Source: a bacterium (GTDB lineage: Bacteria > Patescibacteriota > Patescibacteriia > JAGPKW01). Taken from it: 30,591 nucleotides of DNA. The position numbers and the translations under genes were made by a program. The DNA lies in assembly GCA_035417885.1 (NCBI GenBank), contig DAOLQA010000003.1, positions 1-30,591 of the forward strand. Reading direction: 5' to 3'. The number at the start of each line of letters is the position of its first letter. Within the stretch, counting starts at the first letter, position 1. The notes beneath the pieces were generated by a model. That model worked only from the letters and a program-made list of their open reading frames with translations. It ran no database searches and was not told the origin of the DNA. Below, in pieces: positions 8,471 through 21,109 of this stretch.

Positions 8471-10978
8471 ATGGATGAAAAAAATACAAAGATTGAAAAT
8501 AATGAAAATAAAAAACAATTTGTAATACCAGAAGAAGTTGGAATGAAGCCAGTATCTATCACTAAAGAAATGCAGACTTCATATATAAATTATGCAATGT
8601 CTGTTATAATCTCTCGTGCTCTACCAGACGTAAGAGACGGCTTAAAGCCAGTTCATAGAAGAATATTATATGCAATGTGGGATGTTGGTTTAAAATCAAA
8701 TGCAAAATTTAGAAAATCAGCGCATGTTGTTGGAGAAGTTATGGCTAAATATCATCCTCATGGAGATGCTGCTATTTATGATACTCTTGTCAGGCTTGCT
8801 CAAGATTTCTCTATGAGATATCCTCTTGTTAATGGACAAGGCAACTTTGGATCTATAGATGGAGATACTGCTGCTGCTATGCGTTATACTGAGGTTAAAT
8901 TACAAAAAATAGCTGAAGAATTATTAGAAGATATTGATAAAAATACTGTTGATTTTATGCCAACATATGATAATTCTCATTTAGAGCCAGTAGTATTGCC
9001 AGCTAAATTGCCAAATTTATTATTAAATGGAAGTATGGGTATTGCTGTTGGTATGGCTACCAACATACCAACACATAATTTAAATGAAGTATGTGATGCT
9101 ATCATATATCTATTAGATAATCCAGATGCTGAAGTAGCTGATTTAATGCAATATATAAAAGGACCAGATTTCCCTACTGGAGGAATTATATATAATATAC
9201 AAGATATAAGAAAAATATATGAAAGTGGTAAAGGAGGTATTATTGTCAGAGGTAAAGCGGAAATAGAAGAAGTAAAAAATGGTTTTAGAATATTAATAAC
9301 AGAAATACCATATACAGTAAATAAAGCTACACTTGTGGAAAAAATAGCCGAATGCGCTAGAGAAAGAAAGATAGAAGGGATAAAAGGTATAAGAGATGAA
9401 TCTGATAGAGATGGAATGAGAATAGTTGTTGAATTAAAAAAAGACGCATTCCCCGAAAAAGTTTTAAATTCATTATATAAACATACTGACCTTCAAATTA
9501 CATATCACGCTAATATGCTAGCACTTGTAGATGGAATAGAGCCAAAAGTATTGAACTTAAAAATGTTCCTAACAGAATTTATAAAACACAGGAAACAAGT
9601 TGTATTTAGAAGAACACAGTTTGAACTAGACGAGGCTAAAAAACGTGAACACATATTGCAGGGCTTAAAAATAGCAATAGATAATATAGATGCTGTTATA
9701 GAAACAATTAAAAAATCAAAAGATACAGATACTGCTAAAGTTAATTTAATGACAAAATTTAAATTAACAGAGATACAAGCAAATGCAATATTAGAAATGC
9801 AATTAAGAAGACTTGCTGCACTTGAAAGACAAAAAATTGAAGATGAACTAGCTAGTATATTAAAATTAATTTCAAAATTAGAAGGAATACTTGCGGATGA
9901 AAAGAAAATAGAAAAGATTATAAAAGATGAGTTACAAGAGATGCAACAAAATTATGGAGATGATAGAAAAACAAAAATAGTTAAGTCAAAAATCGGAGAA
10001 TTCTCTGCTGAAGATTTAATACCAAATGAACCAACAGTAATATTAAAAACTGTAGATGGATATATAAAAAGAATGTCACCAGATAATTTTAAATCTCAAC
10101 ATAGAGGAGGAAAAGGCGTCAGTGGAGTAACTACAAAAGAAGAAGATACTGTAGAAAATATATTTACAACCAACACCCATGCTGATTTAATGTTTTTTAC
10201 AACTAGCGGTAAAGTTTTTCAGATAAAAGCTTATGAAATCCCAGAGACGCAGAGAACAAGCAAGGGACAAGCACTTGTAAATTTTTTACAAATAAGTAGC
10301 AATGAAAAAGTTTCTACAATATTAGCATTAGAAAAGCCAGTAGCTGATAAATATATTATAATGGTAACAGAACAAGGAACTATAAAAAAAGTTAGAATAG
10401 ACGAATTTGAAAATGTAAGAAAAAGTGGGCTTATTGCTATAAAATTAAGAGATGGCGATAAATTAAAGTGGGCAAAATTAAGTTCTGGAAAAGACGAGAT
10501 CATACTTACTACTAATAATGGACAATCTGTAAGATTTAATGAGTCTAATATAAGAGTTATGGGCAGAAATGCATCTGGTGTAAGAGGAATAAAATTAAAA
10601 AATGATGATATAGTTGTCGGAATGGATATTATCAAACAGGATAAAGAAAAATATAAATTACTTGTAGTCTCTAGTAATGGTTATAGCAAATCAACAGATA
10701 TAGAAGAGTATAGAATACAGGGTAGGGGTGGATCTGGAATAAAGACTATGAATATTACAGAAAAAACTGGTAAACTTGTAAGTTCAAATCTTATCAGTTC
10801 TAAATTTTTAGAAAAAGATACTGAAAATTCTAAAGATTTAATAATAATGTCAGAAAAAGGACAGGTTATAAGAATAGCGTTAAACTCAATACCAGTATTA
10901 TCTAGAACAACGCAAGGCGTAAGAATAATGAGCTTTAAAGAAGATGGGGATAAAATAGCAAGTGTTACAATAGTCTAA
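8471..10978 (+). CDS. gyrA: DNA gyrase subunit A
   Basis: [22 protein letters not shown], catalytic AAMRY, GyrA-box QHRGGKG, C-terminal pinwheel repeats. Confidence 0.98.
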
Positions 10979-10985
10979 ACTATTA

Positions 10986-11014
10986 TTGACAAGCAAAGTA
11001 TTATATTATATCAT
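10986..11014 (+). promoter_or_regulatory. sigma70 promoter of rpmH
   Basis: TTGACA-17 bp-TATCAT. Confidence 0.8.
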
Positions 11015-11050
11015 AATTATTATTGAAAATAAGCTAAATAAGTTAAAAAT

Positions 11051-11215
11051 ATGTCAAAAACCAAAAGAACATACCAGCCAAGTAAAAGAAAAAGAATAAG
11101 AACTCATGGATTTTTAGCTAGAATGTCAACAAAAGATGGAAGAAGAGTTTTAGCAAGGAGAAGGGCAAAAGGTAGACACCAGCTTACAGTTAAAAAGAAA
11201 TTATTCTTAAAATAA
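11051..11215 (+). CDS. rpmH: 50S ribosomal protein L34 (54 aa; not in the ORF track)
   Basis: Manual translation [54 protein letters not shown]. Confidence 0.98.
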
Positions 11216-11228
11216 AGGTTTACTCAAT

Positions 11229-11267
11229 TACAAAAAGATGATACCTTATAAGTATCATCTTTTTGTA
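11229..11267 (+). terminator. Terminator-like hairpin between rpmH and rnpA
   Basis: TACAAAAAGATGATAC-7 nt-GTATCATCTTTTTGTA, perfect 16-bp inverted repeat. Confidence 0.75.
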
Positions 11268-11275
11268 TAAATATT

Positions 11276-11626
11276 ATGTTAAAGAAAAAATATAGAGTAA
11301 AAAAAATTAAAGAATTTAAAGAAATAATAAAAAATGGAAATTATACTGGAGCAAATGAATTTTATATTAAATTTATTCCAAATAATCTTAATTACTCCAA
11401 AGTATCAGTTGTTGTGCCCTCAAAAATTGAAAAAAGAGCAGTAAAAAGAAATAGAATAAAAAGACAAATGTCAGAAATAATCAGATTAATTTATAAAAAT
11501 ATAAAACCAGGATTTAATATTGTTTTTTTCTGCAAATCTCCAATATTAAAAATGCCATATGAATTAATGAAACAAAAAATTGATAAAATATTATCAGATG
11601 CTAATTTATTAATAAAAAATGATTAA
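11276..11626 (+). CDS. rnpA: Ribonuclease P protein component
   Basis: [25 protein letters not shown] (RNR motif); follows rpmH. Confidence 0.95.
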
Positions 11627-11894
11627 AAATATAACAAAAATACCGTCAGAAGTATCTATAAAATTGATAGAAATATACCAATTATATTTTTCACCAGATC
11701 ATAGCCCATATTGGAGTAAAATAAAAAAACCTGCTTGTAGATATTATCCAACTTGTTCAGAATACACAAAACAGGCTATTGAGAAATATGGGTTAATTAA
11801 AGGTATAATAATAGGTTCTTGGAGAATATTGAGATGCAATCCATTTAGTAAGGGAGGAATAGATCTGGTAGAAAATAATAAAATATTTAAATAA
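11619..11894 (+). CDS. yidD: Membrane protein insertion efficiency factor
   Basis: [17 protein letters not shown]....[14 protein letters not shown]. Confidence 0.96.
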
Positions 11895-11957
11895 TAGTAT
11901 TTTTATAAAATAACCTGTATAATATTTTTTATATATTTTAAATAATAAAATAAATTT

Positions 11958-12791
11958 ATGTTTTTTACTTTAATAGTGCAACCAATGATTAACTTTTTAA
12001 CTGCTATACATGGAATACTTCCACAAATAGACTTTGGAATAGCTATAATAATATTAACAATATTGATAAGACTTATTTTATTCCCACTTAATTGGAAGTC
12101 TATAAAAATTCAGAAAAAAATGAGTATTGTTCAAGAAAAAATGAACCAAATAAAAAATACTGTTAAGGATCAAGAACAACAAGCTATGCAAATAATGAAT
12201 TTATATAAGACAGAAAAAGTAAATCCATTTTCTTCATGCTTGCCATTAATCCTTCAGCTTATAGTATTAATAGGTCTCATAAATGTACTAAATGGATATA
12301 TGGCTGGACAAATAAAAATTAATGGGCAAATGCAGCCACTTGAAAATGCTATATATAAAAATATTAGCTTTATAAAAAAAGATTATGTATATTTTAACAA
12401 AACAGCTTTCGGGTTTTTAGATTTAACGCAAAAAGCAATTGCTAAAGATAAGACGACAAATACAACAGTATATAATATATATGGAATAATATTAGCTATA
12501 ATGTCTGGAATATTACAGTATATACAAACGAAAATGATAACACCAAAAAAAATACCTTCTGTTGAGGGAACAAAAGAAGATAATATAACCAATGCTATGA
12601 ATGCTCAAATGCTCTATATACTTCCTATAATGACTATATGGATAGGGTTATCATTCCCAATGGGGTTAACTTTATATTGGATTATAAGCAGTATATTATC
12701 AATTATACAACAAGCTATTGCCCTAAAATCATCAGATAATAATAAACAAGATAGAGAAAATAAAATTATAGATATCCAAAAATCTAATTAA
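11958..12791 (+). CDS. yidC: YidC/Oxa1 insertase, short form without the large periplasmic domain
   Basis: GIAIIILTILIRLILFPL, IMNLYK..VNPFSSCLPLILQ, FPMGLTLYWIIS. Confidence 0.95.
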   Translation: MFFTLIVQPMINFLTAIHGILPQIDFGIAIIILTILIRLILFPLNWKSIKIQKKMSIVQEKMNQIKNTVKDQEQQAMQIMNLYKTEKVNPFSSCLPLILQLIVLIGLINVLNGYMAGQIKINGQMQPLENAIYKNISFIKKDYVYFNKTAFGFLDLTQKAIAKDKTTNTTVYNIYGIILAIMSGILQYIQTKMITPKKIPSVEGTKEDNITNAMNAQMLYILPIMTIWIGLSFPMGLTLYWIISSILSIIQQAIALKSSDNNKQDRENKIIDIQKSN

Positions 12792-12795
12792 AAAT

Positions 12796-13893
12796 ATGTC
12801 TTTTGAATTTACAAATATATATGTTTTAACAGAAATAGCTATTTTATATATATTACTTAATTTAAAAACTTTAAAAAATTTAAAGAAAAAAGATAATATA
12901 GAAGAAAACAAATTAAATTCAAGAATTAATTTTTTTGATTTTATAAAAGGCCTCGCTATACTAGCAGCATTTATAGGACACATAGTTCTAATTTATAAAA
13001 ATAATCTAGGTGAACTATATTTTTTTATAGTTAAATTATGTAGGTTCGCAATTCCATTTTTTATAATTTCATCTGGCTGTTTATTATACTTAAAAGACTA
13101 TTCAAAAGAGTCAATAAAAAATTTTTATAAAAAAAAGGTAATAAGATTAATCATCCCATATCTCATAGTTTGCATATTTTTATTTATATTAAAAAAATAC
13201 ACTTTCAATCTAACTAATATTATAAAAATATTTGATGGTAAAATCTCAGCCCCATTTTATTTTATGCCAATTTTAATACAAGCATATATATTTTATCCTA
13301 TCATAAATAAAATAATCGATAAGATAGGAAATAAAAAAAGTCTAATACTTTCTTTTATAATATCATTTATAAGCATAATATTAATTCCAACAATATATGA
13401 TTTTCATACATTTTTACCATATTTATTTTTCTTTGTTTTTGGAATAATTTTTAGAAAAAATTATTATATTTATGATTTCAAATATATATTAAAAAAAATA
13501 AATTTTGAAAAGTTTTCATTAATAATTTTTATAATATATTTTTTATTTAGCATAATAGAAAAAAATGAAGAATATTCTAATTTCCAATTAATATATGCTC
13601 CTACTCTATTTATTTTATTGTTCTATGTTAATGATAATATAAAAAATAAAAAAATATATAAATCATTTTCGTTTTTTGGAAGAAATAGTTTATATATTTT
13701 TTTATTACATTTTGAAATATTGCAATCTTTATATAAATATTTTAATAATTTAAATATAAATTATCATTTTAAAAATATTTTATTTATATTACTATCATTT
13801 ATAATAGCATTTTTATTACCAGCAATGTTGTCTGAAAAAATTAAAGACTATCTCCAACAACAGCGCCACTCGCAAACGCCCACATTAGATTAA
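12796..13893 (+). CDS. Acyltransferase family 3 (OafA/OatA-type membrane domain)
   Basis: RINFFDFIKGLAI..IGH, RFAIPFFIISSG, RLIIPYL, FYFMPILIQAY, GRNSLYIFLLH; about 10 TM segments. Confidence 0.88.
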   Translation: MSFEFTNIYVLTEIAILYILLNLKTLKNLKKKDNIEENKLNSRINFFDFIKGLAILAAFIGHIVLIYKNNLGELYFFIVKLCRFAIPFFIISSGCLLYLKDYSKESIKNFYKKKVIRLIIPYLIVCIFLFILKKYTFNLTNIIKIFDGKISAPFYFMPILIQAYIFYPIINKIIDKIGNKKSLILSFIISFISIILIPTIYDFHTFLPYLFFFVFGIIFRKNYYIYDFKYILKKINFEKFSLIIFIIYFLFSIIEKNEEYSNFQLIYAPTLFILLFYVNDNIKNKKIYKSFSFFGRNSLYIFLLHFEILQSLYKYFNNLNINYHFKNILFILLSFIIAFLLPAMLSEKIKDYLQQQRHSQTPTLD

Positions 13894-15091
13894 AGCCACC
13901 ACAATCACCATCTACATCTAAAACTTCACCCGTAAAAAAGAGACCTTTTACTTTTTTTGATTCCAAATTATTATTTATTTCTTTTAAATTTACACCGCCA
14001 GCAGTAACTTGAGCAAAACGAAAATCCTTGCTTCCTGTTATTTTATATTTTGTATTTTTTAATACATCAACTATTAATTTTATATCTCCAATATTCAAAT
14101 CTATTAATTTTTTATTTAGGTCAATTCTATCTAAAAAAATATAATCTATCAACTTTGGGTTTATTAAACCTAATAATAAAAATTTAATATCTTTTTCTTT
14201 GTTGATATTTTTTATATTGATTATATGTTTTTGCAGTTTTTCCTCATCTAAATTTGGAAGAAAATCTATGCTTAAAAATAATTTATTTTTTATATTTTTA
14301 TTTAGTAATTCTGTTGCATATCTTGAAATAGAAATTATTGCAGATCCAGAAATACCATAATCTGTAAATAGAATATCACCCCCATTTTCTTTTATTATCT
14401 GATTATTAAAAATGATCTTTGCATTTCCGCTAAATTTTATTCCTGAAATTTTTTTTAAATATTTACAATCTATAATTAATGGCACAACAGATGGAAATGG
14501 TTTTATTATTTTATGGTTAAATCTTTCGGCAAATATATAGCCATCACCAGTTGTACCTATTTGGGGATAAGCACATCCTCCTGTTGAAATTACAACCTTA
14601 TCTGTAGAAAAAATATCATTATTTGTTTTTATTATAAAAATATTATTATCTTTTTTAATATCTTTTACTGCCGTATTAAGGAAAACTTTAATATTCAATT
14701 TCTCTAATTCATATAACAAAACATTAACTATGCTATTTGCACTATCTGTTATTGGATAAAATTTCCCGTCCTTTTCTTCTTTAAATAGTATCCCTAAATT
14801 CTCAAAAAAATTTAATATTTTTTTATTATCAAATTTTTTAAATACATTTTCTATAATTTCTTTTGTGTTATTAAAATATTCTGTATGATATTTATTTATG
14901 TCTAAATTCTTATTTAATAAATTACACCTGCCATTCCCGGAAATTAAAACTTTTTTACAAATTTTATCATTTTTTTCTAAAATAATAACCTCATTGTTTG
15001 GATTTTTTCGCTTTGCAAATATAGCAGTAGCAACTCCACTAGCTCCTCCACCAACAATTACTATATTTAATTTGTGTTTATTTTCATTCAT
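13841..15091 (-). CDS. HI0933/BaiN/YhiN-family flavoprotein
   Basis: GGGASG, KVLISGNGRCN, TGGCAYPQIGTTGDGY, QVTAGGV, GLFFTGEVLDVDGDCGGFNL. Confidence 0.93.
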   Translation of the reverse strand: MNENKHKLNIVIVGGGASGVATAIFAKRKNPNNEVIILEKNDKICKKVLISGNGRCNLLNKNLDINKYHTEYFNNTKEIIENVFKKFDNKKILNFFENLGILFKEEKDGKFYPITDSANSIVNVLLYELEKLNIKVFLNTAVKDIKKDNNIFIIKTNNDIFSTDKVVISTGGCAYPQIGTTGDGYIFAERFNHKIIKPFPSVVPLIIDCKYLKKISGIKFSGNAKIIFNNQIIKENGGDILFTDYGISGSAIISISRYATELLNKNIKNKLFLSIDFLPNLDEEKLQKHIINIKNINKEKDIKFLLLGLINPKLIDYIFLDRIDLNKKLIDLNIGDIKLIVDVLKNTKYKITGSKDFRFAQVTAGGVNLKEINNNLESKKVKGLFFTGEVLDVDGDCGGFNLMWAFASGAVVGDSL

Positions 15092-15669
15092 GTTATATTT
15101 TTTATTTTTTCTTTTAATATAATTAGACTCCTTCTGTATCTACTTTTTACAGTATTAATTGAGACACCCAATATTTCACTTATCTCCCTAAAATTAAATT
15201 CATTAATATAATATAAATTTAGAACTTCTCTATATATTACAGGAATTTCATCTAATACTTCTTCTATATCCTTCTGTAATTCTAATTTATAATATATCTC
15301 ATCTGGAAGTAGGTCATCATTATCCTCTATGCTATCAACAAATGTTTCAACATCATTATTATAACTGTTTTTATTAAGCTCTGAAAATGTAATATTTTTT
15401 TTCTTTTTTAAAAAGTCTAAGCTACTATTTTTAGCTATTTTATAAATCCATGTTTTAAAATTCTTATCTTTTTTAAATTTTTTTAAATTTCTCCAAGCTT
15501 TTAAAAATACTTCTTGAACAACATCTTCAGCTTCTTCTTCGTCTTTAATATAAGTATATACAAAGTTATAAATTGGCTGTAAATATCTCCTTATCAAAAT
15601 ATTTAACGACTCATTACTGCCATCTAAATACTCTATAATTAAATCTTTATCAGATTTATTGTTGTTCAT
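15088..15669 (-). CDS. ECF-family RNA polymerase sigma factor
   Basis: Regions 2 and 4 only: EAEDVVQEVFLKAW, FKTWIYKIAKN..LD, YREVLNLYY...FREISEIL.VSINTVKSRYRR. Confidence 0.95.
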   Translation of the reverse strand: MNNNKSDKDLIIEYLDGSNESLNILIRRYLQPIYNFVYTYIKDEEEAEDVVQEVFLKAWRNLKKFKKDKNFKTWIYKIAKNSSLDFLKKKKNITFSELNKNSYNNDVETFVDSIEDNDDLLPDEIYYKLELQKDIEEVLDEIPVIYREVLNLYYINEFNFREISEILGVSINTVKSRYRRSLIILKEKIKNIT

Positions 15670-15683
15670 CTTTATTTATATAA

Positions 15684-16121
15684 TTATTGTTGAGCAGCAT
15701 TATCTTGCTTTGGCACTAATTGATTTCTTATTTGTATTGAATCAGCTATAACACTTCCATCACTATTAGCTTTCCCAGAAATTATTACATTATCTCCAAT
15801 ATTTATATCATTAAGCGTTACTTGTGTAGATTTTAACACATTTGTAGAATTTGAAAAAATAATTATTTTAGATCCCCCATCTTTTAACTTTACTGTTATA
15901 GAATTATCATCTTTAGATAATATTTCTCCATCTATCATATTACTTTCTTTTATATTTGCCCTATTAAAACCATAACCGTAATTCATAATTATATTTCTTT
16001 GAGTCGTGGAAAACGAATCGTTTTTGTTGTTTACATTTTTTGAATAAAATACTCCTAAAAGAAATGATAGTATGGTGCTTGCCACTAAAATTAAAGAAAA
16101 GATTATTATCTGTTTTTTCAT
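15684..16121 (-). CDS. Membrane-anchored DUF5666-like protein
   Basis: N-terminal TM; GEILSKDDNSITVKL...DINIGDNVIISGKANSDGSVIADSIQI. Confidence 0.72.
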   Translation of the reverse strand: MKKQIIIFSLILVASTILSFLLGVFYSKNVNNKNDSFSTTQRNIIMNYGYGFNRANIKESNMIDGEILSKDDNSITVKLKDGGSKIIIFSNSTNVLKSTQVTLNDINIGDNVIISGKANSDGSVIADSIQIRNQLVPKQDNAAQQ

Positions 16122-16138
16122 ATTATTAATATTATTAA

Positions 16139-17359
16139 TTATTCATATCTAAGAGCTTCTATAGGGTTTAATTTAGAAGCACGATTTGCTGGATAATATC
16201 CAAATAAAATGCCGATCAGAGCTGAAACACCAAAAGCTAATAAAATTGAGGATGTAGATATTGACGTTGGTATGCCTCCAAGTTTTGAAATAGCTAAAGA
16301 TAATAACCATCCAAGCATTATTCCAAAAAGCCCTCCAAAAAACGTTAAAGCTACCGCTTCCATTAAAAATTGATTATTTATATCTCTTCTCTTAGCTCCG
16401 ATAGCTTTTCTTAAACCTATTTCTCTTGTCCTCTCAGTCACAGTTGTTAACATCATATTCATAATTCCTATACCACCAACAAGTAAAGATATCGCAGCAA
16501 TTGAACCCAATAATGTAGTAAATGTATCTGTTATTAAAGAAGCTGTAGCTAATATATCAGCTTGATTTACAACTATAAAATCTGCTAATGATGCATCTGA
16601 TATTTTATGTCTTTCTAATAATATATTAGTAACCTCATTTTGCAGTTGTGACATCGTGTTCTTATCCTTAGCTTTTATTGCTATTGTGTTTATATATTTT
16701 GTACCCATTAAGACTTTTTGTGCAGTTGTGATTGGAATAAATATCATATCATCTTGGCTGCTAAATCCATTACCACCCTTTGCTTTTGTAATACCTATAA
16801 CTTTAAAGTTTATTCTATTAATACGTATAGTCTGACCAACAACATTTATAGCATCTTCCCCAAATAAATCATCTCTTACATTTGGACCAATAACAGCTAC
16901 TTTTGCATTACTGTCTACATTTTGATCTGATATAAAATTACCTTCTGCAATTTCAATATTTCTTATATCTTGGTAGCTAGAAGTTGTGCCCATTACTTGT
17001 GTATTAGTATTTGTGCCTTTTGCTATAACTTGGTATCTGCCAGAAACTTCTGTATCAATACTGTCAACTAAATCTATCTCATTTTTAATAGCATCTGCAT
17101 CTTCTTGAGTTAAAGTTTGCATTGCTCCTCTGCCCTGATTTATACCATTAACTCGTCTTATACCAGGAGTTACTAATATTAAATTAGATCCTAAAGATTC
17201 TATACTTGATTCTATAGAATTTTTTGACCCTTGGCCAACGGATATCATTGCTATAACAGACCCTATACCTATTACTATACCTAAAATAGTAAGAAATGAT
17301 CTTACTTTATTTGACATTAATGCATAATATACTTCTCTAAATAAATATGATACTTTCAT
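16139..17359 (-). CDS. MacB/YknZ-type ABC permease
   Basis: RSFLTILGIVIG, large extracytoplasmic domain, SLLVGGIGIMNMML.TV.ERTREIGLRKAIGA, NPIEALRYE. Confidence 0.95.
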   Translation of the reverse strand: MKVSYLFREVYYALMSNKVRSFLTILGIVIGIGSVIAMISVGQGSKNSIESSIESLGSNLILVTPGIRRVNGINQGRGAMQTLTQEDADAIKNEIDLVDSIDTEVSGRYQVIAKGTNTNTQVMGTTSSYQDIRNIEIAEGNFISDQNVDSNAKVAVIGPNVRDDLFGEDAINVVGQTIRINRINFKVIGITKAKGGNGFSSQDDMIFIPITTAQKVLMGTKYINTIAIKAKDKNTMSQLQNEVTNILLERHKISDASLADFIVVNQADILATASLITDTFTTLLGSIAAISLLVGGIGIMNMMLTTVTERTREIGLRKAIGAKRRDINNQFLMEAVALTFFGGLFGIMLGWLLSLAISKLGGIPTSISTSSILLAFGVSALIGILFGYYPANRASKLNPIEALRYE

Positions 17360-18054
17360 CTAGTTTTTATTACTTTATCTTGTATTATAAGGCCATCTCT
17401 AATTGTTATAATTCTATCAGCATGCTCAGCAACATCTGGCTCATGTGTAATTAAGACTATTGTATGTCCTTTTTCTCTATTTAGCTGCTGAAATGTTGCT
17501 AAAACTATTTCTCCAGTTTTTGTATCTAAATTACCTGTTGGTTCATCCGCTAATATAATAGACGGATTATTTACCAAAGCTCTTGCTATTGCAACTCTCT
17601 GCATTTGTCCACCCGACAATTGATTAGATAAACTATAAATCTTTGATTCATTAAGGCCAGCGCTCATTATAGCTTTTTTCGCCCGTTCCTCTGCTTCATG
17701 TATATCAACATTATTATACATTAGGGGTAACATAACATTTCTTAACACTGTCGTCCTTGGCAATAAATTAAAAGCTTGAAAAACAAATCCTATTTTGTTC
17801 ATCCTTATATTAGCTAAATCATCCTCCCCTAATTTCGACATATCTCTTCCATCTAAAAAATACTGACCACTAGTTGGCACATCTAATGCTCCTACAATAT
17901 GCATCAATGTTGATTTACCAGATCCAGACGGTCCCATTATAGCAACAAACTCACCTTCCTGTATTGTAAATGAAACACCATTTAATGCTACTGTAGAATT
18001 GCCGTCATTAACATAAATCTTTGTTATATTTTTACATTCTATAATATTTTTCAT
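17356..18054 (-). CDS. MacB/LolD/YknY-type ABC ATPase
   Basis: GPSGSGKST, LSGGQMQRVAIARAL, ILADEPTGNLD, ITH. Confidence 0.96.
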   Translation of the reverse strand: MKNIIECKNITKIYVNDGNSTVALNGVSFTIQEGEFVAIMGPSGSGKSTLMHIVGALDVPTSGQYFLDGRDMSKLGEDDLANIRMNKIGFVFQAFNLLPRTTVLRNVMLPLMYNNVDIHEAEERAKKAIMSAGLNESKIYSLSNQLSGGQMQRVAIARALVNNPSIILADEPTGNLDTKTGEIVLATFQQLNREKGHTIVLITHEPDVAEHADRIITIRDGLIIQDKVIKTR

Positions 18055-18063
18055 AATGTATAA

Positions 18064-20067
18064 TTATCTACCTGGGAATCCTCCGCCTCCATTCATTTGT
18101 TGCATAAAATTCATATTTGATCTTGAGCTAGTAGATGTTGATTTTGATGAACTAGTACTAGTATTAGAAGCACTTGTTTTTATAACAACTTTATCTCCTT
18201 CATTTAAACCATTTATTATTTCTGTATTAGTATCATCTGAAATACCAGTCTCTACATTAATCTTTGTTGGTATTAATTTTGTTGTTAAAATGCCATTACT
18301 ATCTGTACTTATAGAGTTATTAAAAGTTTCAACATAACTCAAACCGTTAGAGGTTCTAATAGCTGAATTTGGAACAATTAATATATCTGATTTTGAATCA
18401 GTTATAATATCAGCAGTCACGCTCATGCCTGGTTTAATTCTCTGATCTTCTATATCAAAACTAACTTTCACAGTATAAGAAACAACCCCTTGTGTTGTTG
18501 TACCTAGAGTATCAACTTCTACAACTTTACCAGTTATTGTTAAATTTTCTACAGAATCAAATGTTAATGTTGCTTTTTGACCAACTTTTATTTTTGGTAT
18601 ATCTGTTTCAGTAAAAGAAATCTCTGCAATACTATGGTCACTAATAACAGTTGCCAGAATCGATCCAGCAGAAGTTTTATCTCCAACATTAACATTTAGA
18701 TTAGCAAGTTTTCCATCAAAGGGCGCTTTTATTATGTAATTTTCGTCTTTTTCATCTAGAAGATTCTGTAAATTATCTGCTGCCTGGCTAACGGACAATT
18801 CATAAGATTTTACTTCTATAGGATCAGGTGGTGATATTAACTCTTTATATGAAGCTTCCTGTATTTTTAAATTACTCTGAGCTGCAGCTAAATCTATTGG
18901 CTGATTCTTAATTAAATTTGCAAGGCTTGTATTTATATCATCCAAATTCTTTTTTGCTGTTACTATACCAGATCCACCGGTTTTAGCAGATATAAGCTGA
19001 GATAAATATGAGTTTGCTGACGATGTATCTTGCTTTAATAATGTATTATATGTATTTATATTATAATAAAGTGTCCTCTTCCTTTGGTTACTATAATCAA
19101 TAAAATAATTATATAAGTTATTTAAATTTCGTGTGGCTTCTGTAATAGTTTCTGCTGTATTAATTGCATTATCTAAAAAACTTCCTATTTCTTCTTTTGA
19201 TGAGCTTTTACTTAAGTTCCTGTATCCAACAACATTTGTATCATAAATAGTCCTTGCATTTTTATATGCTAATGTTGCTTTTTTAGCTAATGTAATAAAT
19301 GTATCTTTATCAGCATCAGTATCAAAAACATAAGAATTTGAAATATCCTCCCAATACTTTGGTATCTCTACATTATAAAACTGACTTAAGTCAATTAAAT
19401 TTACATCCTTTGTAGGGTCACCAGTTATATCTTGAGGTAATAATTCATTTGTAAGATATAAAACTGTCCTTAAATCATTCATTATATTGCTAAATCCCAT
19501 AAAAGCTGCATCTATAGTATTTAGGGCTGATGTATATGAATTTTCTAATGCCGTTTCTGCATTTTCTTTTGATTCAAGTGTTTGATTATATGTAGTCTGT
19601 TGAGAAATTTTCAATTTTTCTACATTATCTTTAGCGTTTTGTAGAGAACTTTGTGCTTGAGCTAGTTGTAACTCAGTTGGCCCATCAATAGCTTTTTTAT
19701 AATTATTTTGTGCTGTCTCTAAATTAATCCTCGCATTTCGTATCTGCTTATCTATATCAGATGAATCAAGAATAATCAAAACATCACCTGCCTTTACCTT
19801 GTCACCTTCCTTTGCATTGACTTGCAATACGGTAGTAGATGCAGTTGTTTTTAAATCTGACTGACTCGAAGCATTAACCTGCCCAGTGGCAGATATAGTT
19901 GATATTATTGTCCCTTTTTCAACTGTACCAATTGTATATTCTATTGCTCCGCTTGATTGGTTTCCAGATGCTCTTACTATAAAATATATACCCAAACCAA
20001 GAGTCAAAATAACTAATGGGACAATTATTTTATGTTTTGTTATTTGCTGCAAAATTTTTTTAGACAT
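18064..20067 (-). CDS. Periplasmic adaptor / membrane fusion protein (MacA/YknX-type) with a very long helical insert
   Basis: N-terminal TM, lipoyl halves EGDKVKAGDVL and IKAPFDG, beta-barrel G.V..VD..G....GVVSY.V, VETGISD..TEIINGLNEGDKVV. Confidence 0.9.
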   Translation of the reverse strand: MSKKILQQITKHKIIVPLVILTLGLGIYFIVRASGNQSSGAIEYTIGTVEKGTIISTISATGQVNASSQSDLKTTASTTVLQVNAKEGDKVKAGDVLIILDSSDIDKQIRNARINLETAQNNYKKAIDGPTELQLAQAQSSLQNAKDNVEKLKISQQTTYNQTLESKENAETALENSYTSALNTIDAAFMGFSNIMNDLRTVLYLTNELLPQDITGDPTKDVNLIDLSQFYNVEIPKYWEDISNSYVFDTDADKDTFITLAKKATLAYKNARTIYDTNVVGYRNLSKSSSKEEIGSFLDNAINTAETITEATRNLNNLYNYFIDYSNQRKRTLYYNINTYNTLLKQDTSSANSYLSQLISAKTGGSGIVTAKKNLDDINTSLANLIKNQPIDLAAAQSNLKIQEASYKELISPPDPIEVKSYELSVSQAADNLQNLLDEKDENYIIKAPFDGKLANLNVNVGDKTSAGSILATVISDHSIAEISFTETDIPKIKVGQKATLTFDSVENLTITGKVVEVDTLGTTTQGVVSYTVKVSFDIEDQRIKPGMSVTADIITDSKSDILIVPNSAIRTSNGLSYVETFNNSISTDSNGILTTKLIPTKINVETGISDDTNTEIINGLNEGDKVVIKTSASNTSTSSSKSTSTSSRSNMNFMQQMNGGGGFPGR

Positions 20068-20077
20068 ATTAATATCT

Positions 20078-20587
20078 TTATTTGTTTAATGGCTCTGGCA
20101 TTATCCTTATTAATTTAGCTTCTATTTCTCCAGAACTATTTGGTTCTCCTATTATAACAACCTTTTGTCCAACCTTTAGATCTTGTTTTCCAACATTTTG
20201 ATTAAACATTCTGATAGTTGTATCATCATCTATAATTACTATCTTTTCAGTATTATCTATATCTTTTATTACTAGTGATCCATCATTATTAATCATTATA
20301 ATCTCTCCAGCAGACCCATTTGAGTTTATAAATCCCATATTTTGATCTTTAAATCTCTCATTAAAAGGTGGCTCCATTCCGTGCTGTAATATATTGTTAT
20401 TATAATTATCTCGCCAATTATATGAAAAGTTTGCTTTTTCAAAACCTATATGGACGCCAAAACTGAATGTAATTAATAAAATTATTAAGAATAAGATTAC
20501 GCCTCCAACAATCTTAAATGCTTTTGATTTAAATACATCACTTATAATATTAATTTTTTCTGGTCCAATATTATTTTTTTCTTCCAT
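20078..20587 (-). CDS. Membrane-anchored DUF5666-like protein
   Basis: N-terminal TM; AGEII..GSLVIKD..TTIR..DLKVGQKVVIIGEPNSSGEIEAKLIRI; alignable by eye with 15684-16121. Confidence 0.72.
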   Translation of the reverse strand: MEEKNNIGPEKINIISDVFKSKAFKIVGGVILFLIILLITFSFGVHIGFEKANFSYNWRDNYNNNILQHGMEPPFNERFKDQNMGFINSNGSAGEIIMINNDGSLVIKDIDNTEKIVIIDDDTTIRMFNQNVGKQDLKVGQKVVIIGEPNSSGEIEAKLIRIMPEPLNK

Positions 20588-20591
20588 AATT

Positions 20592-21020
20592 TTAATTTAT
20601 TAGTTTGTAATTATTATTTTGTTTATAATTATTAAATATCTTGATAACTTGCAGAAAAACTTTTATAAAGAAGAATGACATAGCTCCTATTAATAATGAT
20701 AATATTACATTAGTTATTGGTATAGTTTCAAGTAGTGAAATTATAAAATTCTTCCTATTCTGTAAAATTATATTAAAATCTGAAAAGATTAATGAAAAAA
20801 AGGATGAAAAACCTGTTTCTACTGCCTTATTTCTGATAAGAACAATAGAAAATATAAATAAAGACATAGATATTATTGTACTGATGGAAATAAACATAAT
20901 TTTCCTTCTCAATATAATAAAATTCTCCTCTGCTTTTATATTTTGTATTATTCTATCAAAAAGAGTCTTACTTGGCTCTTTTTGTTTTATTCCTTTTAAA
21001 AAATCTTTATATGTTTTCAT
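20592..21020 (-). CDS. Putative membrane anti-sigma factor
   Basis: Short cytoplasmic N-terminus with EPSKTLFDRIIQNI (anti-sigma helix-like P...L..RI...I) followed by 2-3 TM helices; heads the operon containing the ECF sigma. Confidence 0.55.
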   Translation of the reverse strand: MKTYKDFLKGIKQKEPSKTLFDRIIQNIKAEENFIILRRKIMFISISTIISMSLFIFSIVLIRNKAVETGFSSFFSLIFSDFNIILQNRKNFIISLLETIPITNVILSLLIGAMSFFFIKVFLQVIKIFNNYKQNNNYKLIN

Positions 21021-21041
21021 ATTTTTTGGTTAATGATATAT

Positions 21042-21072
21042 ATTATACGAATGAAATTAACATTTTGGTGCA
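21042..21072 (-). promoter_or_regulatory. Promoter of the anti-sigma/exporter operon, ECF-like
   Basis: Minus strand TGCACC-17 bp-CGTATAAT; could also be a sigma70 -10. Confidence 0.45.
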
Positions 21073-21080
21073 ATAATATA

Positions 21081-21109
21081 AATATGGCATTATCTTTAAA
21101 TGCCATATT
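21081..21109 (-). terminator. Hairpin/terminator after the Kazal gene
   Basis: AATATGGCAT-9 nt-ATGCCATATT perfect 10-bp inverted repeat, 12 bp past the stop. Confidence 0.65.

What the first reader, a model, noticed from the sequence alone, without database searches (positions are those of the whole stretch)
15088..21072. TolC-less MacAB-type exporter flanked by two DUF5666-like proteins and bracketed by a split anti-sigma/ECF pair
Seen: one tightly packed operon (gaps of 4-17 bp or overlaps): anti-sigma-like, DUF5666-like A, 667-aa adaptor, ATPase, permease, DUF5666-like B, ECF sigma. There is no outer-membrane channel gene. Known: ECF and anti-sigma genes are usually adjacent, and Gram-positive YknWXYZ works without TolC using an accessory membrane protein. 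Inference: a five-component envelope machine in which the anchored DUF5666-like proteins are accessory subunits or substrate catchers, autoregulated by the ECF. This would give DUF5666 a functional context.
Basis: partly seen in the sequence, partly recalled or inferred. Interest (0 to 1): 0.7.

Follow-up and report, generated by a model that had tools for sequence, protein, structure and literature searches.

The report
Sigma-controlled MacB pump operon, permuted order
This is a rearranged copy of a seven-gene module found across ultra-small Patescibacteria (CPR), in which a stress sigma factor, a previously unannotated membrane anti-sigma protein and a small OB-fold (DUF5666-like) sensor protein sit with a MacB-type export pump and a second DUF5666-like protein, which gives that orphan domain a testable role.

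Summary
On the minus strand, 21020 to 15088, seven genes lie 4-17 nt apart or overlap. In order they are a small 2-TM protein (asl), DUF5666-like A, a 667-aa MacA-like adaptor, an ABC ATPase, a MacB permease, DUF5666-like B and an ECF sigma.

The genome is a 0.99-Mb Patescibacteria MAG. No TolC/OEP gene passes the cut-off in it or in 60 relatives.

The "split" sigma/anti-sigma pair is a derived permutation. In about 100 related loci the order is ECF-asl-dufA-MFP-ATPase-permease-dufB. Only the window's own family has the ECF at the 3' end. A tree places the window's ECF inside the clade of the 5'-located ECFs.

asl is best read as a new, unannotated anti-sigma family:
- It sits at +1 of the ECF in relatives.
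- The predicted sigma complex scores 0.79 against a best control of 0.01.

The two DUF5666 paralogues separate. dufA travels with sigma/anti-sigma: there are pump-less ECF-asl-DUF triads and natural end-to-end asl~dufA fusions, one of them elsewhere in this genome. dufB travels with the pump: pump+dufB clusters occur in genomes that lack asl.

The "five-component machine" reading is therefore only partly right. Autoregulation is plausible but rests on a family-specific promoter candidate. The substrate is unknown. This scan has already noted the same module on other DNA (at least 40 genomes).

The parts
21045..21072 (-). Candidate operon promoter, TGCACC-N17-CGTAT(AAT), 52 nt upstream of the asl ATG
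   Evidence: The same motif lies upstream of asl in G001 and G004. It occurs only twice in the 987-kb assembly, against about 0.08 expected by my own rough estimate from base composition. No phylum-wide motif was found. Its function is not shown.
21081..21109 (-). Terminator-like hairpin that ends the upstream Kazal-like/MliC unit and marks the 5' boundary of the operon
   Evidence: 11-bp stem followed by a T-rich tail.
20592..21020 (-). asl: 142-aa protein with 2 TM segments, putative anti-sigma factor of a new, unannotated family
   Evidence: No Pfam or NCBIfam hit. 52 homologues, all named 'hypothetical' or left unnamed by their sources. It lies directly after the ECF in 17/17 loci of the phylum sample. 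In the 80-locus set it also follows the ECF wherever the upstream DNA is present, except L137, L143 and L153. Complex model with the ECF: 0.79 against a best control of 0.01.
20078..20587 (-). dufA: N-in single-TM protein with a conserved juxtamembrane helix and an extracytoplasmic DUF5666/OB-fold domain; proposed sensor partner of asl
   Evidence: Model pLDDT 85. Top AFDB cluster hits are DUF5666 proteins, E 5.8e-14. PDB hits are OB folds. Natural asl~dufA fusions. ECF-asl-DUF triads without a pump.
18064..20067 (-). 667-aa membrane-fusion (adaptor) protein with a helical insert of about 340 aa
   Evidence: TIGR01730 121 bits. Model pLDDT 80; best PDB fold matches are MacA chains 9qgy_G and 5nik_D.
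17356..18054 (-). MacB/LolD-type ABC ATPase, encoded as a separate polypeptide
   Evidence: ABC_tran 3.9e-35; MacB N-terminal half 4.5e-72.
16139..17359 (-). MacB-type (type VII ABC) permease
   Evidence: MacB_PCD 3e-52 and FtsX 3.6e-25. PDB MacB 5gko 1.6e-68; Spr0695 5xu1 4e-43.
15684..16121 (-). dufB: paralogue of dufA, with a Gly-rich conserved TM segment, a low-complexity linker and a DUF5666/OB domain; pump-associated
   Evidence: The dufA and dufB HMMs hit each other's members. The G004 orthologue passes the Pfam DUF5666 gathering score, 29.2 against 27. It is retained next to the pump in genomes without asl or dufA.
15088..15669 (-). ECF sigma factor, SigW-like, relocated to the 3' end of the operon
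   Evidence: TIGR02937 122.5 bits. Closest solved relative is B. subtilis SigW 5wuq, 4.6e-44. It falls inside the starred clade (96/98) of the 5'-located cluster ECFs.
13841..15091 (-). HI0933-like FAD flavoprotein gene that overlaps the ECF stop by 4 nt; probably co-transcribed, but not a conserved member of the module
   Evidence: TIGR00275 1.1e-125. Present after the ECF in G001. Near the cluster in only 3 of 80 other loci.

Best explanation
The locus is one copy of a Patescibacteria-wide envelope-stress module built from two separable parts.

Part 1 is a signalling triad.
- It consists of a SigW-like ECF sigma, a 2-TM hairpin protein (asl) and dufA.
- The first ~31 residues of asl's ~40-residue cytoplasmic N-terminus are predicted to clamp sigma regions 2 and 4, so asl acts as the anti-sigma.
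- dufA is a single-TM protein whose juxtamembrane helix and OB-fold (DUF5666) ectodomain serve as asl's extracytoplasmic sensor or co-anti-sigma.
- This is the same logic as SigY-YxlC-YxlD.

Part 2 is a TolC-independent MacB-type exporter.
- It consists of a long MacA-like adaptor, a separate ATPase and a MacB permease.
- It also carries the paralogue dufB as a pump-associated accessory.

Proposed mechanism:
- An envelope signal sensed through dufA/asl releases the sigma factor. Release could go through site-2 protease cleavage: S2P is present in all five checked relatives that carry the cluster.
- The free sigma then transcribes the operon from the promoter upstream of asl.

In this genome's family the ECF gene has moved from the first to the seventh position. 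The promoter stayed at the head of the operon.

Shown: gene content, conservation, gene order, orthology of the moved ECF, the fusions, and the absence of OEP.
Inferred: physical binding (in silico only), the sensing role of dufA, the pump role of dufB, autoregulation, and the substrate (unknown; antimicrobial peptide or drug is likeliest, by analogy with YknXYZ and Spr0693-0695).
For: Gene families.

Conserved cluster:
- 12 of 61 same-class genomes carry it.
- asl is present in 19 of 401 genomes of the phylum sample. The ECF lies directly upstream in 17/17 fetched loci. The full seven-gene order is present in 12, and 2 more are cut by contig ends.
- Of 80 further loci, 43 contain the contiguous order ESAMNPB; most of the others are versions cut by contig ends. 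Three are ESABMNP and one is SAMNPBE, the last from the window's own family.

sigma/asl complex model: score 0.79 against a best control of 0.01.
- That mark was reached by 58 of 80 solved complexes and by 2 of 110 mismatched pairs.
- The runs agree in at least 86% of contacts, and the partner's pLDDT is at least 77.
- asl residues 4-31 contact sigma2 (22-60) and sigma4 (135-189).

dufA travels with the sigma module:
- The fused proteins in G053 and G032 are collinear with asl+dufA. hhalign gives 94% probability (E 1.5e-7) to dufA and 55% (E 1.2e-4) to asl.
- A third such fusion follows a second ECF in this genome, at C60:2304-3589.
- Pump-less ECF-asl-DUF triads occur at L074-L076.

dufB travels with the pump: G041, G060 and G011 have MFP-ATPase-permease-dufB with no asl or dufA anywhere in the genome.

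Orthology of the relocated ECF: starred clade 96/98.
No OEP over the cut-off in any of the 61 genomes.
S2P present in 5/5 near-complete relatives that carry the cluster.
Precedent for a two-protein anti-sigma: ECF31, SigY-YxlC-YxlD (PMC7826278).
Against: - asl has no recognisable anti-sigma domain: no zf-HC2, no Cys or His, and only about 40 cytoplasmic residues.
- The complex pass is a model's confidence. It may be helped by memory of solved SigW/RsiW-type complexes on the sigma side.
- The similarity of the fusion's N-terminus to asl is weak (55%).
- No contact between asl and dufA, or between dufB and the pump, was modelled or measured.
- No promoter motif conserved across the phylum was found (497 against 479 for shuffled sequence), so autoregulation rests on one family-specific motif. 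That motif contains a perfect TATAAT and could be a housekeeping promoter.
- S2P and PrsW were not found in the window's own genome, which is 72% complete.
- The three pump-less triads are the most divergent asl matches (E 1e-9 to 7.6e-4).
Confidence: 0.65

Rival explanations
1. One reading: a five-component envelope machine in which both anchored DUF5666-like proteins are structural subunits or substrate catchers of the pump. The sigma/anti-sigma pair only regulates it.
For: Both paralogues are co-linear with the pump in most loci. In three loci dufB sits next to dufA, upstream of the adaptor (ESABMNP). One AFDB cluster hit is a 772-aa 'Biotin-lipoyl like' protein matched by the OB domain at its C-terminus (rank 9).
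Against: dufA-type domains occur fused to the anti-sigma-like protein, and also with ECF-asl in loci that have no pump. Pumps that keep dufB exist in genomes with no dufA. The paralogous MFP-ATPase-2-permease pumps in the same family have neither protein.
Confidence: 0.17
2. dufA and dufB belong to neither machine. They are envelope proteins or cargo that happen to be in the sigma regulon, for example wall-binding stress proteins or exported substrates of the pump.
For: The OB/DUF5666 domains carry no catalytic or known binding signature. Secreted multi-DUF5666 proteins lie beside some triads (L074 8151-8933, L075 10322-11038).
Against: The positions are strictly conserved. The TM and juxtamembrane motifs are conserved (alignments A2 and A3). 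End-to-end fusion with the anti-sigma-like protein argues for physical coupling rather than mere co-regulation.
Confidence: 0.1
3. asl is not an anti-sigma. It is a YknW-like membrane assembly factor of the pump, and the ECF is regulated by another route.
For: asl has no anti-sigma domain by sequence. Its most conserved part is the extracytoplasmic loop, not the N-terminus. In this window it is 5 kb from the ECF gene.
Against: asl is at +1 of the ECF in almost every relative, including loci without a pump. Pumps with dufB exist without asl. The predicted sigma2/sigma4 clamp scores 0.79 against 0.01. asl does not match Yip1, the YknW family.
Confidence: 0.06

Closest known systems
Bacillus YknWXYZ (sigmaW regulon; SDP-resistance pump)
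   Same: TolC-independent MacB-type pump with an N-terminally anchored MFP (YknX), a separate ATPase (YknY) and a MacB permease (YknZ), plus an extra small membrane accessory protein (PMC4887032). That the pump is controlled by the ECF sigmaW is from my own knowledge. The window's ECF is closest to SigW among solved structures.
   Different: The accessory protein YknW is a 4-TM Yip1-family protein. Here the accessories are single-TM OB-fold (DUF5666-like) proteins and none matches Yip1. The sigma and anti-sigma genes are inside the operon. The adaptor is much longer: 667 aa, against 340-400 aa for the solved MacA, EmrA and AcrA chains it matches. The YknZ ectodomain matches only weakly (5f9q, 3e-6).
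Streptococcus pneumoniae Spr0693-0694-0695, a MacAB-like pump (PDB 5xu1; PMC5768738)
   Same: A monoderm MacAB-like pump with separate ATPase and permease and a channel-forming MFP. The permease matches at 4e-43.
   Different: It has no sigma/anti-sigma genes and no DUF5666 genes in the operon. Its adaptor has no ~340-aa helical insert.
B. subtilis sigY-yxlCDEFG (ECF31)
   Same: Operon logic of ECF, then an anti-sigma at +1, then a small membrane co-regulator at +2, then an ABC transporter. Both YxlC and YxlD are needed to regulate SigY (PMC7826278).
   Different: YxlFG is not a MacB/MFP system. There is no sequence relation: the NCBIfam SigY model scores 84.8 bits against a cut-off of 194. 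YxlD is not known to be an OB/DUF5666 protein (my own knowledge).
E. coli MacAB-TolC
   Same: MacB permease fold (5nik 1.7e-62) and MacA-like adaptor fold.
   Different: There is no outer-membrane factor in this lineage. ATPase and permease are separate polypeptides. The adaptor is anchored by a TM helix and carries a much larger helical domain.

Membership tests
ECF (group 4) sigma-70 factors | Only sigma regions 2 and 4; matches the ECF superfamily model above its cut-off | tested here: met
   Sigma70_r2 3.6e-22, Sigma70_r4_2 5.9e-13, no r3 or r1. TIGR02937 122.5 bits against 42.9.
Class I anti-sigma factors (zf-HC2/RsiW-like ASD) | Four-helix anti-sigma domain of about 80-90 aa, often with an HxxxCxxC zinc motif | tested here: not met
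   No Pfam or NCBIfam hit and no PDB relative. The cytoplasmic N-terminus is only about 40 aa and contains no Cys or His.
Anti-sigma factor (functional definition) | Encoded next to its sigma and binds sigma regions 2 and 4 | tested here: inconclusive
   Adjacency is met in relatives but not in this window. Binding is supported only in silico: 0.79 against a best control of 0.01 (mark reached by 58/80 solved complexes and 2/110 mismatched pairs), at least 86% contact agreement between runs, partner pLDDT at least 77. There is no experiment.
MacB-type (type VII) ABC exporter | FtsX-type TM domain with a large MacB periplasmic core domain between TM1 and TM2, driven by a MacB/LolD-type ATPase | tested here: met
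   MacB_PCD 3e-52 and FtsX 3.6e-25. MacB structures 5gko 1.6e-68 and 5nik 1.7e-62. ATPase against the MacB N-terminal half 4.5e-72.
Membrane fusion protein (HlyD/RND_mfp) family | Split lipoyl domain enclosing an alpha-helical domain, then beta-barrel and membrane-proximal domains | tested here: met
   TIGR01730 121.2 bits against 94.9. The model shows lipoyl halves at 42-100 and 445-486, helices at 103-444 and C-terminal beta domains. Best fold matches are MacA.
Tripartite MacAB-TolC system | An outer-membrane factor (OEP/TolC) partner | tested here: not met
   PF02321 is not found in the window's own genome. No match passes the cut-off in any of the 61 genomes searched, including near-complete ones that carry the cluster.
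YknWXYZ four-component pump | Yip1-family 4-TM accessory protein YknW | tested here: not met
   None of asl, dufA or dufB matches Yip1 in Pfam at E<=0.1.
DUF5666 (PF18914) | Match to the Pfam model at or above the gathering score (27 bits) | tested here: inconclusive
   The window's proteins score 19.0 (dufA) and 21.1 (dufB) bits. The dufB orthologue in G004 scores 29.2 and the one in G038 scores 26.7. The dufA model's top AFDB cluster hits are DUF5666 proteins, with E from 5.8e-14 to 1e-7.
ECF31 (SigY-YxlC-YxlD) | Sequence membership of the SigY group | tested here: not met
   NCBIfam SigY model PRK09638 scores 84.8 bits against a cut-off of 194. The resemblance is one of operon logic only.

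The most novel reading that the evidence does not exclude
DUF5666 OB-fold domains are the ligand- or state-sensing ectodomains of a CPR-wide class of two-piece ECF anti-sigma factors. The asl hairpin would be shielded from site-2 proteolysis by dufA. The paralogue dufB, docked on the MacB pump, would exchange or heterodimerise with dufA. Pump load would then be reported to the sigma factor, a flux-sensing circuit like BceAB-BceS but built on an ECF.
Probability: 0.12. Interest if true: 0.75.

Novelty: new variant of a known kind. Interest (0 to 1): 0.5.

Why it matters
Patescibacteria have very few regulators and almost no studied stress responses. This module is one of their most widely conserved regulated envelope systems.

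- It defines an unannotated anti-sigma family: every homologue found is named 'hypothetical' or left unnamed.
- It gives DUF5666 two concrete, separable and testable contexts, one as a sensor partner of an anti-sigma and one as a companion of a MacB pump. I found only six papers that mention the domain.
- The permuted copy in this window is a natural experiment. The sigma gene can sit last in the operon while the promoter stays first.

I found no published description: DUF5666 appears only in passing, and the main text of the ECF reclassification paper does not mention CPR. This scan has noted the module before on other DNA.

Tried and rejected
- The search for related loci with the broad alignments A1, A2 and A3 failed because they have no conserved stretch. 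A five-sequence dufA alignment worked.
- De novo search for a bipartite promoter over 80 upstream regions. The first run timed out. The second locked onto the conserved ECF N-terminal coding sequence. The third, restricted to upstream DNA, gave nothing clearly above shuffled sequence (497 against 479).
- The TGCACC-N17-CGTAT match upstream of the ECF in G265 (L072) was rejected as chance. That GC-rich genome has as many control matches.
- A profile search for longer (278-2000 aa) fused forms of asl found none. The real fusions are 234-261 aa and too divergent for that profile.
- The cupredoxin fusion of dufB in G038 looked like a clue to metals, but it is a one-off among 54 dufB orthologues.
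- A Protein Atlas look-up of asl gave only 'hypothetical' clusters and one weak DUF5056 lead at 0.90, which I did not pursue.
- S2P and PrsW were not found in the window's own 72%-complete assembly. This is not read as absence, because S2P is present in 5/5 relatives.
- Supplements of the ECF reclassification paper are not held.
Full report
**What is in the window.**
- The minus strand from 21020 to 15088 carries seven ORFs separated by 4, 10, 9, -4, 17 and 14 nt.
- A 667-aa HlyD/RND_mfp adaptor, a MacB/LolD-type ATPase, a MacB_PCD+FtsX permease and an ECF sigma are all identified well above curated cut-offs.
- The two small flanking proteins hit DUF5666 only below the gathering score (19.0 and 21.1 bits against 27).
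- The first gene, here called asl, encodes 142 aa with two TM segments and hits nothing.
- A terminator-like hairpin (21081-21109) closes the upstream Kazal-like/MliC unit.
- A flavoprotein gene (13841-15091) overlaps the ECF stop codon by 4 nt.

**Organism and TolC.**
- The genome is 987 kb in 82 contigs and 72% complete. All relatives have 0.7-1.3 Mb genomes.
- Named relatives of the dufA gene are all Patescibacteria/CPR MAGs. Some TPA records are obviously mislabelled.
- PF02321 (OEP/TolC) is not found in the window's own genome. No match passes the cut-off in any of the 61 genomes searched, G000 included.
- The only two sub-threshold matches lie inside long adaptor ORFs.
- 'TolC-less' is thus a property of the lineage, not of this pump.

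**Conservation and gene order.**
- Neighbourhoods were fetched for the adaptor's relatives, for an asl profile across a 401-genome phylum sample, and for 80 dufA relatives. All three show one dominant order on a single strand: ECF-asl-dufA-MFP-ATPase-permease-dufB.
- In the 80-locus set, 43 contain that contiguous string, and most of the others are versions cut by contig ends.
- Three loci are ECF-asl-dufA-dufB-MFP-ATPase-permease.
- Only one has the window's order, and it is G004, from the window's own family.
- Two further loci (L143, L153) lack an adjacent ECF. In L153's genome a strong orthologue lies on another contig.
- A maximum-likelihood tree puts the window's 3'-located ECF inside the starred clade (96/98) of the 25 cluster ECFs. 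It is separate from three other ECFs of its own genome (C21, C34, C60).
- The 'split pair' is therefore a relocation of the orthologous gene, not a different architecture.

**asl as anti-sigma.**
- asl has about 40 cytoplasmic residues with a conserved 'EP..L...V..RI..E' pattern, then TM1.
- Next comes a highly conserved outside loop (SGF..FFSL.FSDF......W..F.LSLLESLP), then TM2 and a basic tail.
- All 52 homologues found are named 'hypothetical' or left unnamed by their sources, and none has a Pfam domain. No solved structure is related by sequence.
- asl follows the ECF directly in 17/17 phylum-sample loci. The same holds in nearly all of the 80 loci.
- The complex model of the ECF with asl 1-42, using 25-row alignments, scored 0.79 against a best control of 0.01. 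That mark was reached by 58 of 80 solved complexes and by 2 of 110 mismatched pairs.
- The runs agree in at least 86% of contacts and the partner's pLDDT is at least 77. asl residues 4-31 touch sigma2 (22-60) and sigma4 (135-189).
- The ECF is SigW-like (5wuq, 4.6e-44), so part of this pass may reflect memory of solved sigma/anti-sigma complexes. It supports binding and does not show it.
- asl fails the class I anti-sigma domain definition. I file it as a functional anti-sigma of a new family, at moderate confidence.

**The two DUF5666-like proteins.**
- They are paralogues, since each HMM finds both.
- The dufA model (pLDDT 85) has one long helix (TM plus juxtamembrane part) and a six-strand barrel. 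Its best AFDB clusters are DUF5666 proteins (E 5.8e-14). Its PDB analogues are OB folds.
- The dufB orthologue of G004 passes the Pfam gathering score (29.2).
- The two proteins have different allegiances.

dufA goes with sigma/anti-sigma.
- (a) In G053 and G032 the gene after the ECF encodes a 258- or 261-aa protein and there is no separate dufA. Read end to end, that protein is asl followed by dufA: N-terminal helix, TM1, 'SG...SLP' loop, TM2, basic stretch, TM3, juxtamembrane helix, OB domain.
  - hhalign gives 94% probability (E 1.5e-7) to dufA and 55% (E 1.2e-4) to asl.
- (b) The window's own genome holds a second ECF followed by such a fused protein on contig C60 (2304-3589), with no pump nearby. 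Its ECF groups with the other fused-type ECFs.
- (c) Three divergent loci have ECF-asl-DUF without any transporter.

dufB goes with the pump.
- G041, G060 and G011 (90-100% complete) have MFP-ATPase-permease-dufB.
- They have no asl, and their only dufA-profile match is dufB itself.
- A paralogous MFP-ATPase-two-permease pump in the same family has neither protein.

**Mechanism proposed.**
- The triad ECF/asl/dufA is a two-piece anti-sigma sensor of the SigY-YxlC-YxlD kind (PMC7826278). It controls a YknXYZ/Spr0693-0695-like pump (PMC4887032, PMC5768738) that carries dufB as an accessory.
- Release by intramembrane proteolysis is feasible, because S2P is present in 5/5 near-complete relatives that carry the cluster. 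It was not found in the window's incomplete assembly.
- The substrate is unknown.
- The adaptor model shows a 100-residue outgoing helix, a disordered tip (207-232), five return helices and a Gly/Ser-rich tail. MacA is the best fold match.

**Autoregulation.**
- A motif TGCACC-N17-CGTAT(AAT) lies 52 nt upstream of the asl ATG (21072-21045) and is conserved in G001 and G004.
- It occurs only twice in the assembly. The second copy precedes a structured leader and a P-type ATPase gene on C26.
- No phylum-wide motif emerged.
- The motif contains a perfect TATAAT, so a housekeeping promoter is not excluded.
- Autoregulation remains an inference.

**Novelty and relation to earlier notes.**
- The literature held here mentions DUF5666 only in passing. 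I found no description of this CPR module.
- This scan has already noted the same module in at least 40 other genomes, and several follow-ups reached similar conclusions. My tests were run independently and agree.
- This window adds four things: the permuted order with proof of orthology, the collinear asl~dufA fusions (one in the same genome), the reciprocal pump-plus-dufB clusters without asl, and the family-specific promoter candidate.

Noticed in passing
Own genome contig C60:2304-3589 (L168:1480-2765), minus strand: A second ECF (194 aa) overlaps a 234-aa protein that is collinear with the fused asl~dufA type (hhalign 90%, E 1.6e-6). No pump is adjacent. The genome therefore carries both the split and the fused version of the sensor.
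   Followed up: partly
Own genome contig C26:9640-9900 (+) and 9850-12378: The only other copy of the promoter-like motif TGCACCAAAAT..ATTCGTATAAT in the assembly. It is followed by an inverted repeat, a terminator-like hairpin and an 842-aa ORF that I read as a P-type ATPase from its N-terminal sequence (no family search was run). It may be a second regulon member or a regulated leader.
   Followed up: partly
L038:12128-12841 (G038) = L130:13257-13970: Here the dufB orthologue carries a C-terminal cupredoxin domain (PF13473 3.7e-10; Copper-bind 1.5e-9). It is the only such fusion among 54 dufB orthologues.
   Followed up: partly
window 18064-20067: The adaptor model has a helical region of about 340 aa: an outgoing helix of ~100 residues, a disordered tip at 207-232 and five return helices. 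It also has a disordered Gly/Ser-rich C-terminal tail (634-667). The weak OEP-like matches in relatives fall inside such adaptor ORFs.
   Followed up: partly
window 13841-15091: An HI0933-like (aminoacetone-oxidase family) flavoprotein gene overlaps the ECF stop by 4 nt. A homologue lies next to the module in only 3 of 80 other loci (L088, L123, L156).
   Followed up: partly
L023, L024, L032, L040: A paralogous pump in the same family and class: long adaptor, ATPase and two MacB-type permeases, with no ECF, asl or DUF5666 genes. In G004 and G002 a Kazal-like gene lies about 2 kb upstream.
   Followed up: no
L028:3858-4736 and L039:6079-6705: dufB orthologues of 292 and 208 aa in which the halves of the domain match the profile out of order. 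This suggests duplication or circular rearrangement.
   Followed up: no
L077, L108, L130, L138, L152, L154, L155 (record titles): Several TPA MAG records that carry this CPR module are titled 'uncultured Gammaproteobacteria'. Genome size and gene content say Patescibacteria, so the titles look like mislabels.
   Followed up: no
L074:8151-8933 and L075:10322-11038: Secreted proteins with two DUF5666 repeats (27.0 and 27.5 bits, at or just above the gathering score) lie beside the pump-less ECF-asl triads.
   Followed up: no
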